Positions 39,111 to 44,028 are shown, counted from the first letter of the stretch. The stretch: DNA of 52,695 nucleotides from Candidatus Heimdallarchaeota archaeon (GCA_019056785.1 DXJV01000091.1:1-52695), one strand, 5' to 3'. Notes: generated by a model from the sequence alone, not told the origin. Program-made: numbers and translations.

Positions 39111-39929
39111 TCAAATCTCATTTAAATCATCTGCAACTGATAGAAGAAGTTGCTTGAATAATTTATTTTCCCTTAAAAAGCTAAGATTTTTTGTTACTGG
39201 TGAGATGCTTATTTTATTCTTAAGTATCGCATGAAGGTCTGTTCCTGGAGGTGCTTCAAGAATGGCATCCCCCCATAGGAAATAGTAATCATTCTCTCTT
39301 GGGTCCTTATGTTTTATTGGTTTGAAGGTTAGTGATCTGTCAGCTAGTGAAGTGATTTCGATTAATGTTTCCCGTGTTATTTGTTTGGGAAAGTTAACAT
39401 TGAAAAAAGCTAGCTCTGGGGGGAACTGCTTTCCCAGGAGTTTTTCGACCATCTTCGCAGCCAGTTCAGTAGCCACTTTAAAGGCTTCCTTTGGTGGTGT
39501 TACAAAGAAATTCGCTTGGTGAACATCCATTGAAAAGGCTATTGCTGGGACATTCATGTATGCTGCTTCAAATGCTGCTGCACATGTTCCTGAGGTTAAG
39601 ATGATGTGTGAAGAAATATTCAATCCTTGATTAATACCTGCAACAACCATATCAAAAGGTCTCTCTGACAAAGATTGCAACCCAAAAATCACCGCATCTG
39701 CTGATGAGCCATCAATAGTATACCCTTGAATGTTCTCTGAAATAACTTCTTTTTCAACATGAAGAATTTGATTAATTGTTATAGCTTTACCTTCGGCACT
39801 TCTTTGGATGTGAGGGGTGATAATTGTCACTCGAGCAATTTTTTTCAGGGCTTTATAGAGCATAATTAAACCATTACTTCTCAACCCGTCATCACAAGTA
39901 AGCAAAATTTTGTATTTTTTTTCTGTCAT
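39111..39929 (-). CDS. surE: 5'/3'-nucleotidase SurE
   Basis: ILLTCDDG, GSSADAV, GINQGLN, SGTCAAAFEA, NVNFP. Confidence 0.93.
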   Translation of the reverse strand: MTEKKYKILLTCDDGLRSNGLIMLYKALKKIARVTIITPHIQRSAEGKAITINQILHVEKEVISENIQGYTIDGSSADAVIFGLQSLSERPFDMVVAGINQGLNISSHIILTSGTCAAAFEAAYMNVPAIAFSMDVHQANFFVTPPKEAFKVATELAAKMVEKLLGKQFPPELAFFNVNFPKQITRETLIEITSLADRSLTFKPIKHKDPRENDYYFLWGDAILEAPPGTDLHAILKNKISISPVTKNLSFLRENKLFKQLLLSVADDLNEI

Positions 39930-40058
39930 TGTATGAACCTACACTTTAAAAAACATATAATTGTTTTTAAATTTCAGTTTATTTCAGTATTTTATAGGAA
40001 AAGAAAAGTATGTTAGTTAATAAAAATATGAAAGAGTTTCATTATCTGTGGTATTAAA

Positions 40059-40456
40059 ATGGCTCACTCCAATCCATTAGAGTCTAAAGTAATAGTTTTA
40101 GGGCTATCCCAGTCCGGCAAGACATCGATTAAACAAGTTGTTTTGAAGGGTTTACTCCGCAGGCAACCGCACTTAATCAGACCACTGTACGAATTAATCG
40201 AAAATTGTTTAATTTAGCCGGTGGCAACATCAATCTTTTTGATATTTATGGCAAACGAATACAAAAATCAGCTTTAGATGTTGCTTTGGAAAATGCAGAA
40301 CAACTAGAAAGAGGATTTAATGTTAAAAGTGGTTTTGGGACAACTACAATAGAAATGTATCTCATTCATGATTGTGTCGAGGAGTTGCGTCTAATCCCTG
40401 TAATTCTGGATCAAAATCCTGAGTATCGACGATATGAAAAGAGCCGTCCGATGTGA
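40059..40456 (+). pseudogene. Rag/Gtr-like GTPase remnant
   Basis: ATG 40059 gives MAHSNPLESKVIVLGLSQSGKTSIKQVV. One T is missing at 40141-40144, then FEG...TTVRINRK...INLFDI; the remainder of G3, G4 and G5 are absent (internal deletion). Confidence 0.7.
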
Positions 40457-40485
40457 GGGATTTTTCCTCTCTTTTTTAACGATGG

Positions 40486-42363
40486 TTACTTGTTTTCACC
40501 GGAACTTGATTGAGCTTTCACTAGAAAATCAGCCATTTCTTGTACTTCTTCCTCAGTCATCTCGAGTTTTTCTTCTGCTTTTTCTTTTGCCTTTTTAATT
40601 TCCACTTGCCGTATAAGATATCTCTGTTCTTCTTCACGCAAACGTTGTAAGAACCTCGACTTTGGTTTTGGCTCCTCGTGTGGCACTTCTTCTTCTTCTT
40701 TCACGACAATTGATATTTCTTGTATAGGCTCCACTTTTGTTTCTTGGACATTACTTGCCGGTTCTTCTGGAATTAATTGTTGTTTTTGCACAATCGGAGG
40801 AGGATGTGAGGATTCTTTAACTAGTTTCTCTTTCTCTTCCTCTTCTTCTGGCAATTTTCCTTCTTCAATTAATTCTTCAGTACGCAATTTGTTTAAAAAT
40901 GAGAACATACTTTTTTCTTCGAGAGGTTTTTCTTTAATTTCAATTTCCATTTTTTTAGTTGGTTCTTCATTAGATGCGGTAGTTATCGGTGGTGAAATTT
41001 GAAGTGGTGGTGTATCCAGAGATTCTGTCGAAGGCAAAGAGGGGGAAGTTTTTATTTCAAGTGGTTCAGTAGTAATTTCAGCCATATCCTTTCCTGGCAC
41101 TTTTTCAGGCTCTACAATTGGAGGTTGGATTGTTGATTTGGTGATTTCAGCTGATGATGTAATTGATGATTTTGCTTTATCCGCTGATATTTTTACAAGT
41201 TCTTTTCTAGTTTTTGTTGCTATTGGAGGTTCAACCTTTGGTTTTGTGCTTACTTTTGTCGGAGCCTTATCTTTCTGAGAGGGATCAAGAGATTTTGCAA
41301 ACTTTCTAATTAACTCGTAAAATATTTGAGTTTTCTCTAACGTGATAGGATAAAAACTCGTAATTAAAAGGAATTTACTTACAAGATCAACAATCATACC
41401 ATGTACTTTTCCACTTGAGGAAGTAACAATACTAATTGTTGAATCATCATCTGTGGGTTTGTTTTTTAAAGCGTCCTTAAATTCCTGGAGAGCAATAATA
41501 TAATCCATGGTTTGTTCAACATCCGCCACTTCATAGGAAGAAATACCAGTAATGGGTGAATAGGTCGCTTTATCGATGAGGACGATTTCAATTATTTTGT
41601 ATTCTGAAAGATCTATTTCAATAGTTCTTTCACCAAAGGAGGGGAGAACTCTTTGCGGTTTAGGGGTTAAAAACGCCATTAATTGTTTAATGCGTGGGTC
41701 ATCACGATGCTCGACAACATATTTCTGAAATTCATCTGATTGCTTAACTTTTTGGCCAATATTGGTTATAAGCTCAAAGCGTTTAGTGTTGAGGTTTGCC
41801 TCCTTCATTAATTGATTAATCAATTCCTTAAGAGAATCTTTATAATAAATGCTTGTCGCTTCAAAACGGATTTTGAATTTCGGGTCACTAAATTCGTTCT
41901 TAACTCGCTCCAATAAGGGGACAAGTTCTTCAGGTGAAATAAGGTCAACTTTATGACAAAGAACAGCAATATAGCCATCAGGGTTTTCTTTTTTAAACTG
42001 ACGAATAGTAAAACTAAAACGACGCTCAGATTCTTCAAATAAATCTTCCCGGGTCATATCAACAACCCATAAAAGAAGTTTAACATTTGAAAAAATGAGA
42101 TGACGAAAGTGAGTCACAGCTTCATTCCAATAACTTTCTTGTCCATCGGCATCAGTTATCAAATTCTTTTTCTCTTTGTCGATAAGTTGCCGTTCATAAT
42201 GGATCGTTGCTATATAATTTTCAACCAATTCGGGATCCTTCCCAAAAAACACAACGTCTTTAATAGCTGTCTTGCCTGCTTGTTGTAATCCCATCAAAAG
42301 GATCTTGTCTTCAATTGGTGCGCCTTCTTTTTTTCCTTTTAACTCATCAAACAGATAAGACAA
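40486..42363 (-). CDS. Rag/Gtr-like GTPase with roadblock/longin-like domain and long P/E/K-rich tail
   Basis: KILLMGLQQAGKTAIKDVVF, ATI, DADGQ, HKVD and TSIY match Rag-type motifs (KVLLMG..GKT, HKxD, TSI). Confidence 0.85.
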   Translation of the reverse strand: MSYLFDELKGKKEGAPIEDKILLMGLQQAGKTAIKDVVFFGKDPELVENYIATIHYERQLIDKEKKNLITDADGQESYWNEAVTHFRHLIFSNVKLLLWVVDMTREDLFEESERRFSFTIRQFKKENPDGYIAVLCHKVDLISPEELVPLLERVKNEFSDPKFKIRFEATSIYYKDSLKELINQLMKEANLNTKRFELITNIGQKVKQSDEFQKYVVEHRDDPRIKQLMAFLTPKPQRVLPSFGERTIEIDLSEYKIIEIVLIDKATYSPITGISSYEVADVEQTMDYIIALQEFKDALKNKPTDDDSTISIVTSSSGKVHGMIVDLVSKFLLITSFYPITLEKTQIFYELIRKFAKSLDPSQKDKAPTKVSTKPKVEPPIATKTRKELVKISADKAKSSITSSAEITKSTIQPPIVEPEKVPGKDMAEITTEPLEIKTSPSLPSTESLDTPPLQISPPITTASNEEPTKKMEIEIKEKPLEEKSMFSFLNKLRTEELIEEGKLPEEEEEKEKLVKESSHPPPIVQKQQLIPEEPASNVQETKVEPIQEISIVVKEEEEVPHEEPKPKSRFLQRLREEEQRYLIRQVEIKKAKEKAEEKLEMTEEEVQEMADFLVKAQSSSGENK

Positions 42364-42447
42364 CTTTTCACACCTTGAATTATTTTTATTTCTTTATTTT
42401 TTATCGCCTTTATAACTATCTTGTTCTTTCGGCAAATGGTGGGCTAT

Positions 42448-43290
42448 TTATATTTTTGTAACTCTTTTTTTATCCTTTTTTGCATTTTTTAAAGCAGCAT
42501 CCATGATAATTACTGAGCGACGGCGAATGGTATCTAGAAGTACCTTAATTTCAGCCAATGGTTTCTTCTTTTTTGAGGCGGTTATTAGCTCATCAATCTC
42601 CGGATATTGGAATTCTTGATTTGCTATTAAAAAAAACACCAAAAGCTGCGTCAGCAAGAACAATAAGTGAAAGGTTCTCAAAACCTCCACGCATTAATTT
42701 ATTCTCGAGTTGAATCCCGTGGATAAAGGCAACCATGTCTTCATTTGGAAGATTTATAGAACCAATGCGTCATCGTTCATCGTGTTCTTCAAATCCAAGT
42801 GAGGAATAAGCATAGTTACAAATCTTTAAGAGAAAATTCTCAACACCAATGCGCATACGGGGTTTATAATAGGGGTCTTCTAAAGAATGATTGCCCACTA
42901 AAGGTATGGGTCCTTTTATCTGGTCAAAAAATAGACAGAAACACACTGAGTGACATTTTCAAAGTATTCTCTTCGATCTCTTCTTCTGAAACCTTCTCCA
43001 TTAATTCTTCAAATAATCGAGCTCTTACTAAATGATAAATAACAAACCCCATAACAATAGAAAATAAGACTGCTGCAGCTATAATTATATGAATCATTTG
43101 TAAAGAGAGCCCGCCAGAAACAGCCAGGATTTCTGAACCAAAAACTTCTTGCAAGGGATCATATTTGTTGCCACCTGCAAAAGTTGCTTTCATAATTATT
43201 ACTTCCATACCTTAACAATTCTATAGTTGATTATTGCCTTACCACTTGTATCTGTTTGAGTTGTGCGATCGACCTCTTGGATTGTGTCTT
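42448..43290 (-). pseudogene. Remnant of an Ig-like/TM/uDENN-longin receptor
   Basis: Frame-corrected read: TDTSGKA...ATFAGGNKYDP (Ig-like), TM IHIIIAAAVLFSIVMGFVIY, then VFLSIFDQIKGPIP...ENKLMRGGFENLSLIVL. Shifts near 43205, 42926-42931 and 42629-42636, and a TGA at 42770-42772. Confidence 0.65.
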
Positions 43291-43857
43291 TTTTGCTCAA
43301 GATAAACCCCCTAACAAAGTCTTTGGCTCCAAGGATGTGCTCTTCTGTCACAACTGCATGTTCTTTCAAGTCGAGATGTGTTCCCAGAATGATAATGGAA
43401 GTAAAATCCATAATAAAATCACGTTTAATAGCTTTGCTGAGCCAATATTCTAATTCTTGGAAAGTATTCAGTTCGGTAATTTTATTTGTTAAAACAAGTG
43501 CTATAACTACATTCGTTGGGCAGTGGACAAGAAGAGATCAGCAGCATCTTCAAAAGCAAGCCCCGAACCTTTTTCAGCACGGCCTTTCTGCCCGGGGAGA
43601 ATGAAAAATTGTGAGCTAGTAGTCAAATTATATTCTTCAATATACGATTGAAAGATAAAAAAATCTAACTCTAAATTGATAGATTTTCGCAAATTATCGC
43701 CCTTTTGATAATACCATTTCCCTTTAGCACTAGTAAGATTCATCGCAGTGTGGGTTTTCCCTGTGCCACCATCGCCAATAAAGACAACCCCACCAGTACA
43801 AGTAATTTTATTGTCAGTTAAGCGAATGAGATTTGCTAAAGTGGTATCAAGAGTCAT
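43291..43857 (-). pseudogene. Atypical (MglA-like) small GTPase, frameshifted and 3'-truncated
   Basis: G1 GDGGTGKT, G3 ILPGQ (lacks Asp, like MglA TVPGQ), frameshift near 43520, then TFQELEYWL...IIILGTHLD (G4). No G5. Confidence 0.7.
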
Positions 43858-44028
43858 CTACAATGCAGCTCAATTTAAGACTTGTAAAAGTTACTGTCTT
43901 TTCTTTCTAGAGCACAATTTATTATCTTTTCTTTTGCGGAAAAAGCAAAATCAAAAGTTCTCCTAAAATTTAAATTAATTAATGGTTAATTATACATAGT
44001 TCAAAGCATAAGAGCTTGTTTAAAATAA

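What the first reader, a model, noticed from the sequence alone, without database searches (positions are those of the whole stretch)
40059..43857. Hidden, decaying receptor-GTPase operon: MglA-like GTPase, Ig-TM-uDENN receptor and Rag-like GTPase, facing a second Rag-like remnant
Seen: six short ORFs resolve, after frame correction, into an atypical GTPase, an Ig-TM-uDENN receptor remnant (FDQIKGP...RGG motifs) and a convergent Rag-like remnant, around an intact Rag-like gene. Known: eukaryotic Rags work as heterodimers regulated by longin/DENN proteins (FLCN-FNIP, GATOR1 NPRL2/3). Inference: an ancestral membrane-receptor-to-Rag-pair signalling module now being lost. Intact versions in relatives would define an undescribed system.
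Basis: partly seen in the sequence, partly recalled or inferred. Interest (0 to 1): 0.85.

Follow-up and report, generated by a model that had tools for sequence, protein, structure and literature searches.

The report
Decaying receptor-Rag GTPase gene cluster
In this Heimdall-group (Asgard) archaeon, a four-gene cluster that relatives keep intact is being destroyed by deletions, frameshifts and a stop codon, leaving only one Rag-like gene whole; the cluster encodes a small GTPase, a giant surface receptor with a folliculin-like tail and two Rag-like GTPases.

Summary
Window 40059-43857 holds eight short ORF fragments around one intact Rag-like gene (40486-42363, minus strand). Against relatives they resolve into three broken genes:
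- A Ras-type small GTPase with one frameshift and its 3' end deleted.
- The last roughly 250 residues of a 1440-1600-aa single-pass receptor: an Ig stub, the TM helix and a cytosolic longin domain. It carries three frameshifts and one TGA. About 4 kb of ectodomain is missing.
- A convergent second Rag-like gene with one frameshift and an in-frame 813-nt deletion.

Twenty-eight Heimdallarchaeota species carry this small GTPase gene. In 13 of the 14 loci that reach far enough past the receptor, all four genes are intact and adjacent.

The lesions are real. Three independent metagenomes reproduce them. A fourth, from a strain about 99% identical, lacks exactly the three longin-domain lesions but has two extra stop codons in the Rag remnant.

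The receptor tail of an orthologue folds confidently as a folliculin/SMCR8/NPRL2-type longin domain, with an invariant GP motif and an invariant Arg. "MglA-like" is not supported; the small GTPase is a divergent Ras-family member.

This scan has already found and followed up the intact cluster on other genomes. New here are the stepwise natural loss and the co-decay of three partners. I found no paper describing the cluster.

The parts
40059..40456 (+). Pseudogene of the second Rag-like GTPase (RagL2). The P-loop GLSQSGKTS is kept. There is a -1 frameshift in a T-run at about 40140-40145 and an in-frame 813-nt deletion (orthologue residues 78-348, from G3 to the C-terminal CxxC) at about 40245-40250. 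The last 70 residues are kept.
   Evidence: Pfam Gtr1_RagA gives only 17.4 bits for the first fragment. tblastn places orthologue residues 15-43, 39-77 and 349-419 in two frames. Alignment A6 shows the gap. Intact orthologues are 406-432 aa and score 113-117 bits on Gtr1_RagA. The X4 strain adds two stop codons, at 40301 and 40310.
40486..42363 (-). Intact Rag-like GTPase (RagL1), 625 aa. It has a G domain, a conserved middle domain to about residue 380, and a low-complexity tail of about 245 aa. G3 reads DADGQ (42153-42139), against DSGGQ in all 12 orthologues.
   Evidence: Pfam Gtr1_RagA 84.9 bits, cut-off 22. The best solved relatives are Gtr1, RagA and RagC, E about 1e-9. Against strain X4 there are 7 synonymous and 7 non-synonymous differences.
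42448..43025 (-). Broken cytosolic longin domain of the receptor (folliculin/SMCR8/NPRL2 type). The GP motif is at 42928-42908 and the RGG arginine at 42691-42683. Lesions: +1 at 42926-42928, TGA at 42772-42770, +1 at 42627-42629.
   Evidence: tblastn gives 79% identity to G007 receptor residues 1279-1378, read through the stop and across frames. The AF2 model of the orthologous tail has pLDDT 87. VIA Z-scores: 12.2 to the Loki longin 8yqg, 11.6 to Lst4, 11.0-11.1 to FLCN. Strain X4 lacks all three lesions.
43026..43109 (-). The single transmembrane helix of the receptor remnant.
   Evidence: A hydrophobic stretch aligned to the TM helix of the orthologous receptors.
43110..43264 (-). Stub of the last Ig-like ectodomain repeat, in two frames with a 1-nt frameshift at about 43213. 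Everything upstream (signal peptide and about 1150-1290 aa of ectodomain) is deleted.
   Evidence: Frame-by-frame comparison with the membrane-proximal region of the G008/G010 receptors. The fragment from 43208 aligns at 45% identity over 95 aa. Orthologues are 1438-1617 aa.
43265..43857 (-). Pseudogene of the cluster's small GTPase, a divergent Ras-family member. G1 is GDGGTGKTH, G3 is LPGQ without Asp, G4 is THLD. There is a -1 frameshift in a C-run at 43519-43522. G5 and the C-terminus were lost to the large deletion.
   Evidence: 62-66% identity to intact 243-257-aa orthologues in the same genus. All 11 orthologues scanned match Pfam Ras weakly. The frameshift is present in all four metagenome assemblies.

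Best explanation
This locus is a dying copy of a four-gene cluster that two families of Heimdallarchaeia keep intact. The usual order is small Ras-type GTPase, then one or two giant type-I surface receptors (signal peptide, Ig-rich ectodomain of about 1200 aa, one TM helix, cytosolic longin tail of about 195 aa), then Rag-like GTPase 1, facing a convergent Rag-like GTPase 2.

Shown:
- In this species one deletion of about 4 kb removed the end of the small GTPase gene and almost the whole receptor ectodomain.
- A second deletion gutted Rag-like 2.
- Single-base slips in homopolymer runs and a CGA-to-TGA change then broke what was left.
- The order is partly readable from a sister strain. The two deletions and the frameshifts in the GTPase and in Rag-like 2 came first. 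The three longin-domain lesions are later and specific to the window's lineage.
- Only Rag-like 1 is still open.

Inferred, for the intact cluster:
- The receptor tail carries the GP motif and the invariant arginine that mark the catalytic longin domains of folliculin, NPRL2 and SMCR8.
- It therefore most likely acts at the membrane as a GTPase-activating (or at least GTPase-binding) module for the co-encoded Rag-like pair. This would tie what the ectodomain binds outside the cell to the nucleotide state of the Rag-like dimer inside.
- The small GTPase would be a further switch or the membrane-recruiting element.
- Once the receptor lost its ectodomain, its partners became dispensable and decayed together.

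I put about 0.9 on the relic reading and about 0.45 on the GAP-for-Rag mechanism.
For: Relic reading:
- Lesion map against intact orthologues.
- 28 species-level Heimdallarchaeota loci carry the small GTPase gene. In 13 of the 14 loci that extend far enough past the receptor, all four genes are intact and adjacent. Two more loci show the start of Rag-like 1 at the contig end. One genome has a rearranged order that still keeps all four genes together.
- Flanking synteny with surE matches that of relatives.
- Logan contigs of three independent metagenomes match the window at every lesion they cover. Strain X4 (about 99% identical) has one T fewer at 42629 and at 42926 and has CGA instead of TGA at 42772-42770. 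That gives an open 263-aa TM-longin frame. X4 keeps both deletions and the other frameshifts and has two further stop codons in the Rag-like 2 remnant.
- Between the two strains the Rag-like 2 remnant diverges three times faster than Rag-like 1: 2.3% against 0.75%, Fisher p = 0.011.
- The longin remnant differs at 5 of 48 positions that are invariant in 21 orthologues.
- No second copy of the tail or of the small GTPase was found in this 82.5%-complete genome.

Mechanism:
- The tail is the best-conserved part of the receptor (70% mean column identity, against 31-50% identity for the ectodomain).
- The AF2 model has pLDDT 87 and pTM 0.83 with longin topology.
- Its best structural matches are the longin-GAP group: Loki longin Z 12.2, Lst4 11.6, C9orf72-SMCR8 11.3, FLCN 11.0-11.1, GATOR1 NPRL 9.3. 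Atlas clusters carry the Folliculin and C9orf72 Pfam families.
- KGP before strand 2 and RGG in the strand 4-5 loop are invariant. They persist in paralogues of about 25% identity from another family and another class.
- PMC12290439 reports exactly this GP-plus-arginine signature as specific to GAP longins and present in Heimdall longins, and asks which GTPase they act on.
- In a different class (G063), a 2337-aa receptor with the same tail is again flanked by two Gtr1/RagA-family genes in another arrangement.
Against: - No binding, GAP activity or expression has been measured.
- The Pfam Folliculin model matches two orthologues only below threshold: 16.7 and 14.2 bits against a cut-off of 23.3.
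- The profile of the tail finds no solved chain by sequence.
- I could not check residue by residue that the invariant Arg is equivalent to FLCN Arg164.
- Eukaryotic longin GAPs work as heterodimers with DENN domains. This tail has neither a DENN part nor a known second subunit.
- In family f3, paralogous receptors with the same motifs have no Rag-like gene within about 10 kb. One f2 locus (L041) has the small GTPase and the receptor but no Rag pair. Rag linkage is therefore not universal.
- Rag-like 1 survives here although its presumed partners are gone.
Confidence: 0.8

Rival explanations
1. The frameshifts, the stop codon and the deletions are sequencing or assembly artefacts of a metagenome-assembled genome, and the genes are really intact.
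For: Four of the single-base lesions lie in homopolymer runs. The genome is a 102-contig MAG.
Against: Independent assemblies from three studies match the window at every lesion they cover. A fourth strain keeps both deletions and three of the frameshifts, and differs only at three lesions, each time in the direction that restores the orthologous reading. The neighbouring long genes in the contig are open, including ORFs of 1913, 908 and 728 aa. Assembly error cannot produce two clean deletions flanked by correct synteny.
Confidence: 0.03
2. The cluster is reduced, not dead. A headless receptor (short stub, TM helix, longin tail) together with Rag-like 1 still works as a ligand-independent switch, either in this strain through frameshifting or read-through, or only in the sister strain.
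For: In strain X4 the TM-longin frame is open for 263 aa with both signature motifs. Rag-like 1 is open in both strains, with 7 synonymous against 7 non-synonymous differences, which is fewer non-synonymous than neutrality predicts.
Against: In the window's lineage the tail carries three independent disabling changes of two kinds. The remnant lacks a signal peptide and its own promoter context. It differs at five positions invariant in 21 orthologues, including two next to the GP motif. Rag-like 1 has a unique G3 change, DSGGQ to DADGQ.
Confidence: 0.07
3. In the intact cluster the longin tail is not a GAP for the Rag-like pair. It could be a membrane anchor or scaffold for their roadblock domains, as Ragulator is. 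It could be an exchange factor, as other longin platforms are (TRAPP, Mon1-Ccz1, DENN). Or its client could be the adjacent small Ras-type GTPase.
For: Most longin platforms are exchange factors or scaffolds (PMC12290439). The small GTPase gene is immediately upstream of the receptor in every locus, including the rearranged one. That GTPase keeps the catalytic Gln but lacks the G3 Asp, so it is an unusual switch. Family f3 paralogues carry the motifs without nearby Rag genes.
Against: The GP motif plus arginine is reported as specific to the GAP longins and absent from exchange-factor longins. The structural neighbours are the Rag and Arf GAP longins. In class-distant G063 the tail is flanked by two Rag-like genes, and the one neighbouring ORF I compared (270 aa) is not the small GTPase.
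Confidence: 0.3

Closest known systems
Folliculin-FNIP (yeast Lst7-Lst4), the longin-DENN GAP complex for RagC/D (Gtr2); also GATOR1 NPRL2-NPRL3 (GAP for RagA/B) and C9orf72-SMCR8 (GAP for Arf)
   Same: The longin fold of the receptor tail matches with VIA Z 9-12. It has a GP motif before strand 2 and an invariant arginine in the strand 4-5 loop. Its gene is linked to two Rag/Gtr-family GTPases.
   Different: The tail is a lone 195-aa longin domain without the central and C-terminal DENN parts. It is fused to a single-pass surface receptor instead of being soluble. No second longin subunit is known. The Pfam Folliculin model is matched only below threshold. Activity is untested. In this window the domain is a pseudogene.
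GP-motif 'FLCN/SMCR8-type' longin proteins of Heimdallarchaeia described in Traffic 2025 (PMC12290439)
   Same: The same signature (GP motif plus arginine finger), the same clade, and the same open question of the client GTPase.
   Different: That paper gives no genomic context and no receptor architecture: the words 'operon', 'genomic context' and 'transmembrane' do not occur in it. Here the domain is the tail of a giant receptor in a conserved cluster with two Rag-like genes.
Asgard Rag-like GTPases (Tran et al. 2024, PMC10933270; solved LokiRagM 9m28)
   Same: Rag-like 1 and Rag-like 2 are Gtr1/RagA-family G domains with further C-terminal domains. A pair encoded side by side is also reported for MK-D1 and predicted to heterodimerise.
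   Different: That paper states that MK-D1 GTPase genes generally do not lie in operons with roadblock or longin genes. Here they do. Rag-like 1 has a low-complexity tail of about 245 aa, and Rag-like 2 has a C-terminal CxxC...HxC motif.
MglA-MglB polarity switch of Myxococcus
   Same: The small GTPase lacks the G3 aspartate (xPGQ), as MglA does (my own knowledge of MglA). It sits next to a roadblock/longin-superfamily domain.
   Different: No MglA chain is among the best 60 profile hits. The nearest are Rab21, Sec4 and Cdc42, and more distant relatives pass Pfam Ras. G4 is THLD.

Membership tests
Rag/Gtr GTPases (Pfam PF04670) | The G domain matches the Gtr1_RagA model above its curated cut-off. 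| tested here: met
   Rag-like 1 of the window scores 84.9 bits against 22. Intact Rag-like 2 orthologues score 113-117 bits. The window's Rag-like 2 fragment alone scores 17.4 bits, below the cut-off, but it is orthologous by tblastn.
Rag/Gtr GTPases (Pfam PF04670) | Rag-type G3 (DxGGQ) and G4 (HKxD) motifs. | tested here: inconclusive
   Orthologues have DSGGQ or DIGGQ, and HKVD or HKMD. The window's Rag-like 1 has HKVD but DADGQ, unique among 13 sequences.
Rag/Gtr GTPases (Pfam PF04670) | A C-terminal roadblock domain that mediates heterodimerisation of two different Rags. | tested here: inconclusive
   There is only a weak feature-based lead: residues 185-385 score 0.81 to Gtr1_RagA fragment clusters. 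The domain was not folded, and dimer formation was not tested.
Longin-domain GAPs (FLCN, NPRL2, SMCR8; uDENN type) | Longin fold (two strands, helix, three strands, helices). | tested here: met
   The AF2 model of the orthologous tail has pLDDT 87 and element order E-E-H-E-E-E-H-H. VIA Z is 11.0-11.1 to FLCN, 11.6 to Lst4 and 12.2 to the Loki longin.
Longin-domain GAPs (FLCN, NPRL2, SMCR8; uDENN type) | GP motif at the start of strand 2, reported as specific to the GAP longins (PMC12290439). | tested here: met
   G51 is invariant, and P52 is present in at least 90%, among 21 orthologues. GP is kept in 8 distant paralogues. It sits at the strand 1-2 turn of the model. It is present in the window at 42928-42908.
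Longin-domain GAPs (FLCN, NPRL2, SMCR8; uDENN type) | A catalytic arginine finger structurally equivalent to FLCN Arg164, NPRL2 Arg78 or SMCR8 Arg147. | tested here: inconclusive
   An invariant Arg in RGG lies in the strand 4-5 loop in all 29 sequences. The tools gave no residue-level superposition on FLCN. The equivalence to Arg164 rests on my memory of the FLCN sequence.
Longin-domain GAPs (FLCN, NPRL2, SMCR8; uDENN type) | Sequence membership in Pfam Folliculin (PF11704). | tested here: not met
   The best matches are 16.7 and 14.2 bits against a cut-off of 23.3, in two of eight orthologues scanned.
Longin-domain GAPs (FLCN, NPRL2, SMCR8; uDENN type) | The full tripartite DENN architecture (longin plus central and C-terminal DENN) and a second longin subunit. 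| tested here: not met
   The cytosolic part is only about 195 aa and is filled by the longin domain. No second soluble longin gene is conserved in the cluster.
Longin-domain GAPs (FLCN, NPRL2, SMCR8; uDENN type) | Stimulation of GTP hydrolysis by a client GTPase. | not testable with these tools
   This needs biochemistry.
MglA-type GTPases | Sequence or profile similarity to MglA. | tested here: inconclusive
   The profile of 11 orthologues lists Rab21, Sec4, Thor-Rab, Rab9 and Cdc42, and no MglA, among the best 60 of 135 weak hits. Relatives pass Pfam Ras. The AF2 model was too poor (pLDDT 50) for a fold search.
Pseudogene (decaying locus) | Disabling changes relative to intact orthologues, reproduced in independent data. 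| tested here: met
   Five frameshifts, one nonsense codon and two deletions. They are reproduced in 3-4 metagenomes. The Rag-like 2 remnant has a faster substitution rate and further stop codons in the sister strain.

The most novel reading that the evidence does not exclude
The intact form of this cluster is an archaeal forerunner of the folliculin/GATOR1-Rag nutrient switch, wired directly to the cell surface. A giant receptor's own cytosolic longin tail would use its GP motif and arginine to switch off a co-encoded Rag-like heterodimer. The joint decay seen here of the receptor, the small GTPase and one Rag-like gene would then be a natural knock-out showing that these proteins work as one unit.
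Probability: 0.4. Interest if true: 0.85.

Novelty: new variant of a known kind. Interest (0 to 1): 0.55.

Why it matters
Rag GTPases and their longin-domain GAPs (folliculin, GATOR1) are the core of eukaryotic amino-acid sensing at the lysosome. A 2025 study found the GAP-longin signature in Heimdall archaea and asked which GTPases those longins serve.

The conserved cluster behind this relic suggests an answer that can be tested at the bench. The longin domain is the tail of a surface receptor, and its gene stays beside two Rag-like GTPase genes.

This window adds something the intact copies cannot show. When the receptor lost its ectodomain, the small GTPase and one Rag-like gene decayed with it. 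Two closely related strains catch this at different stages. That is co-loss evidence for functional coupling. It also shows that the cluster is dispensable in at least one lineage, and it hints that Rag-like 1 has a role of its own.

The locus itself is dead, so experiments must use relatives such as Ca. Heimdallarchaeum aukensis.

Tried and rejected
- Complex prediction of two copies of the longin tail with the small GTPase, GTP and Mg gave 'no answer' (score 0.00). This is no evidence either way.
- The AF2 model of the small GTPase from 11 sequences was poor (pLDDT 49.7), so I made no fold search of it.
- hhalign of the small GTPase profile against both Rag-like profiles found no significant relation.
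- The profile of the tail and a single tail sequence found no solved chain by sequence, even at E = 10. I therefore could not print a residue-level alignment to folliculin.
- NCBIfam gave nothing useful.
- A 270-aa ORF beside the G063 receptor is not the small GTPase.
- No RNA holder was listed among the public runs, so expression could not be examined.
- G009, which lacked matches to the tail and the small GTPase, is not a second loss: its Rag-like 1 gene is cut by a contig end.
- Programmed frameshifting and TGA recoding are rejected. The lesions are of different kinds, they are absent in a sister strain, and they accompany two large deletions.
- Genes upstream of the cluster in relatives (Band 7, M17 peptidase, nitroreductase; a weak roadblock match in H. 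aukensis) are not conserved between genera. I do not count them as part of the cluster.


Full report
**What is in the window**

The window is one whole contig (C74, 52,695 bp) of a 2.87-Mb, 102-contig, 82.5%-complete metagenome-assembled genome. Its relatives are all labelled Candidatus Heimdallarchaeota. One relative in a sister family is the closed genome of Ca. Heimdallarchaeum aukensis PM71.

Between 40059 and 43857 the ORF list shows one long open gene (40486-42363, minus strand, 625 aa). Around it are eight fragments of 47-116 aa. Pfam places the long gene in Gtr1/RagA (84.9 bits). It gives the first plus-strand fragment a sub-threshold Gtr1/RagA match through its P-loop.

**Intact orthologues and synteny**

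The 116-aa minus-strand fragment (43507-43857) finds open frames of 239-261 aa at 52-66% identity. These are in 8 of 10 other genomes of the same genus and in a sister family.

Fetching those loci shows four intact genes. In all but one fetched locus the order is: small GTPase (239-255 aa), receptor (1438-1600 aa), Rag-like 1 (490-604 aa), and a convergent Rag-like 2 (407-419 aa).

A scan of one genome per species found 28 loci with the small GTPase gene.
- In 13 of the 14 loci that extend far enough past the receptor, all four genes are present, open and adjacent.
- Two further loci show the start of Rag-like 1 at the contig end.
- Three loci have two tandem receptor paralogues.
- One genome (G030, L034) has a different order (Rag-like 1 divergent upstream, Rag-like 2 downstream of the receptor) yet keeps all four genes together.

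**Lesion map**

Laying the intact proteins on the window gives the following.
- Small GTPase: the reading frame switches at 43519-43522, where a C-run is one base short. Homology ends at about residue 190-205.
- A deletion of about 3.8-4.2 kb joins that point to the last Ig-like repeat of the receptor. It removes the GTPase's G5 and C-terminus, the intergenic region, the signal peptide and about 1150-1290 residues of ectodomain.
- The remaining receptor piece is an Ig stub, the TM helix and the cytosolic domain. It carries a 1-nt frameshift at about 43213, an extra base in a T-run at 42926-42928, a TGA at 42772-42770 where all orthologues have Arg, and an extra base in a T8 run at 42627-42629.
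- Rag-like 2 lacks one base in a T-run at about 40140-40145. It also has an in-frame 813-nt deletion from just after the Asp of G3 to the C-terminal CxxC.

The surE-like gene next to the Rag-like 2 remnant is the same neighbour as in relatives, so the contig is not chimeric here.

**Are the lesions real?**

Seventeen public runs hold part of this stretch. Six of them hold half or more of its sampled words, and all are sediment or hydrothermal-vent metagenomes. I laid the Logan contigs of four of them, from four different studies, on 39900-44000.

Runs X1, X2 and X3 match the window without gaps at every lesion they cover. All three read A instead of G at 40061, which turns the ATG of the Rag-like 2 remnant into ATA.

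Run X4 carries a strain about 99% identical.
- It has one base fewer at 42629 and one fewer at 42926, and G instead of A at 42772, which makes the TGA a CGA.
- Those are exactly the three lesions of the longin domain, each changed towards the orthologous reading. With them the frame is open for 263 aa, from the TM stub through the whole longin domain.
- X4 keeps both deletions and the frameshifts in the small GTPase and in Rag-like 2.
- It has two additional stop codons in the Rag-like 2 remnant, at 40301 and 40310.

That ten random differences in 761 nt would hit those three sites has a probability of about 2e-6. So the lesions are mutations, not errors, and decay is stepwise: the deletions and two frameshifts came first, and lineage-specific hits followed.

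Between the strains the Rag-like 2 remnant has diverged 2.3%, against 0.75% for Rag-like 1 (p = 0.011). The longin remnant differs at 5 of 48 positions that are invariant in 21 orthologues. That equals the most divergent orthologue and exceeds the 0-1 seen in the other members of its own genus.

No other copy of the tail or of the small GTPase was found in this genome. The genome is only 82.5% complete.

**The receptor**

Orthologues have an N-terminal signal-peptide-like hydrophobic segment. Then comes an ectodomain of about 1200-1300 aa with weak Big_13 and PKD (Ig-like) matches, one TM helix, and a cytosolic tail of about 195 aa.

The tail is far better conserved than the ectodomain: 70% mean column identity, against 31-50% pairwise identity.

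AlphaFold2 on 21 tails gives a confident model (pLDDT 87.2, pTM 0.83) with two strands, a helix, three strands and two long helices.

The best matches from Foldseek and the VIA second look are:

| Match | VIA Z |
|---|---|
| Lokiarchaeal longin domain (8yqg) | 12.2 |
| Lst4 longin | 11.6 |
| C9orf72-SMCR8 | 11.3 |
| Folliculin | 11.0-11.1 |
| GATOR1 NPRL subunits | 9.3 |

SNARE, TRAPP and Ragulator/MglB roadblock folds score lower. The ESM Atlas search returns clusters carrying the Folliculin, C9orf72 and NPR2 Pfam families. Pfam's Folliculin model is matched only below threshold.

Two motifs are invariant. KGP lies at the turn before strand 2. RGG lies in the loop between strands 4 and 5. Both persist in paralogues of about 25% identity from family f3 and from a genome of another class.

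A 2025 paper reports exactly this pair, a GP motif and an arginine finger. It describes them as specific to the catalytic longins of folliculin, GATOR1 and C9orf72-SMCR8 and present in Heimdall longins. It asks whether Arf-related or Rag GTPases are their clients, and it gives no genomic context (PMC12290439).

There is no room in 195 aa for the rest of a DENN module.

**The GTPases**

Rag-like 1 and Rag-like 2 are clear Gtr1/RagA-family members. Their G3 motifs are DSGGQ and DIGGQ, and their G4 motifs are HKVD and HKMD.

The window's Rag-like 1 is open, but it reads DADGQ, unique among 13 sequences. It also has M51I at another otherwise invariant site, where the sister strain still has Met. 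Its count of private changes (5 of 92) is not unusual for an isolated branch, so I cannot say that it is decaying. The genome holds other Rag-family genes that it might pair with.

The small GTPase has GDGxTGKTH, xPGQ without the usual Asp, and THLD.
- Its profile hits Rab21, Sec4, Thor-Rab and Cdc42 only weakly, and no MglA appears among the best 60.
- All 11 orthologues scanned match Pfam Ras weakly. Most are near or below the 21.6-bit cut-off, although the H. aukensis orthologue reaches 27.6 bits.
- A HMMER pass over 1.84 billion representatives finds only 50 relatives. The ten more distant ones that I scanned all pass the Pfam Ras cut-off.

It is a narrow, divergent Ras-family lineage. 'MglA-like' is not supported.

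**Distribution**

The orthologous tail (E about 1e-100) is found in 7 of 10 genomes of family f1 and 20 of 29 of family f2. Distant paralogues occur in 18 of 21 genomes of family f3 and in one genome of another class. It was not found in the other roughly 240 genomes of the phylum that were sampled.

In f3 the paralogues are tandem giant receptors without a Rag-like gene within about 10 kb. In the other-class genome, G063, a 2337-aa receptor is flanked by two Gtr1/RagA genes.

Public databases call these proteins 'hypothetical' or 'Ig-like domain-containing'.

**How it most likely works**

Shown: the architecture, the conservation, the fold and the linkage. Inferred: that the tail acts on the co-encoded Rag-like pair as a GAP or a binding platform at the membrane, and that the small GTPase is a further switch. 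The single complex prediction I could run gave no verdict.

For this window the functional statement is simple. The receptor, the small GTPase and Rag-like 2 are pseudogenes, and only Rag-like 1 can still make a full-length protein.

**Relation to earlier work**

The papers I could search describe Asgard Rag-like GTPases, including a pair in one operon in MK-D1. They state that GTPase genes there generally do not sit with longin or roadblock genes (PMC10933270). They also describe a roadblock/Rab-like/DENN operon (bioRxiv 2020.10.19.343400) and GP-motif longins (PMC12290439).

None of these papers describes a receptor with such a tail beside a Rag pair.

This scan had already reported and followed up the intact cluster in several other genomes, with the same reading. 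Those notes are not independent evidence. I reached the fold, motif and synteny results here before reading them.

Noticed in passing
L041 9753-20469 (BPTO01000022.1, Heimdallarchaeota 8H_bin2): A possible second decaying copy. The receptor is split by an in-frame stop into ORFs of 603 and 981 aa. No Rag-like genes follow; the downstream genes are hydrolases, a nucleotidyl transferase and an MFS transporter.
   Followed up: partly
L053 7853-18548 (G063, another class of the phylum): A 2337-aa receptor with the same GP/RGG longin tail lies between two Gtr1/RagA-family genes (325 and 384 aa), in a different arrangement. A long coiled-coil gene lies next to them.
   Followed up: partly
L049-L052, L054 (family f3 genomes): Tandem pairs of giant receptors (about 1320-2350 aa) have tails that keep FFDQxxGPVP and ARGGxENL. 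In four of these five loci the pair is followed by a 960-1030-aa ORF (a weak DUF7743 match in the one scanned). No Rag-like gene lies within about 10 kb.
   Followed up: partly
window 40250-40456 and alignment A6 (Rag-like 2 C-terminus): Rag-like 2 orthologues end in a conserved CDVCG...H(E/D)C motif that looks like a metal-binding site. I know of no counterpart in eukaryotic Rags. In the window the first Cys is lost to the deletion and the second is Tyr; the sister strain still has Cys there.
   Followed up: no
window 42464-42470: An A-run (minus strand) near the stop codon of the receptor varies between strains. The window has one base more than the reading that matches the orthologues' C-terminal KKDKKEIKKYQ, and strain X4 has two more.
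   Followed up: partly
window 40061: Three metagenomes read A instead of G, which turns the ATG of the Rag-like 2 remnant into ATA.
   Followed up: yes
window 43858-44028 compared with L017 689-7510: In congeners about 5 kb of unrelated genes (nitroreductase, M17 aminopeptidase, Band 7 and others) separate the small GTPase gene from the OppA-like 627-aa gene. In the window the two are only 171 bp apart, so this flank was also rearranged or deleted.
   Followed up: partly
Its last 332 residues show no profile similarity to the folliculin-like tail family (hhalign probability 0.1).
   Followed up: partly
window 40486-41180: Rag-like 1 carries a Pro/Glu/Lys-rich low-complexity tail of about 245 aa that ends in a conserved charged segment. 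The tail is present, with variable length, in all orthologues (490-686 aa in total).
   Followed up: no
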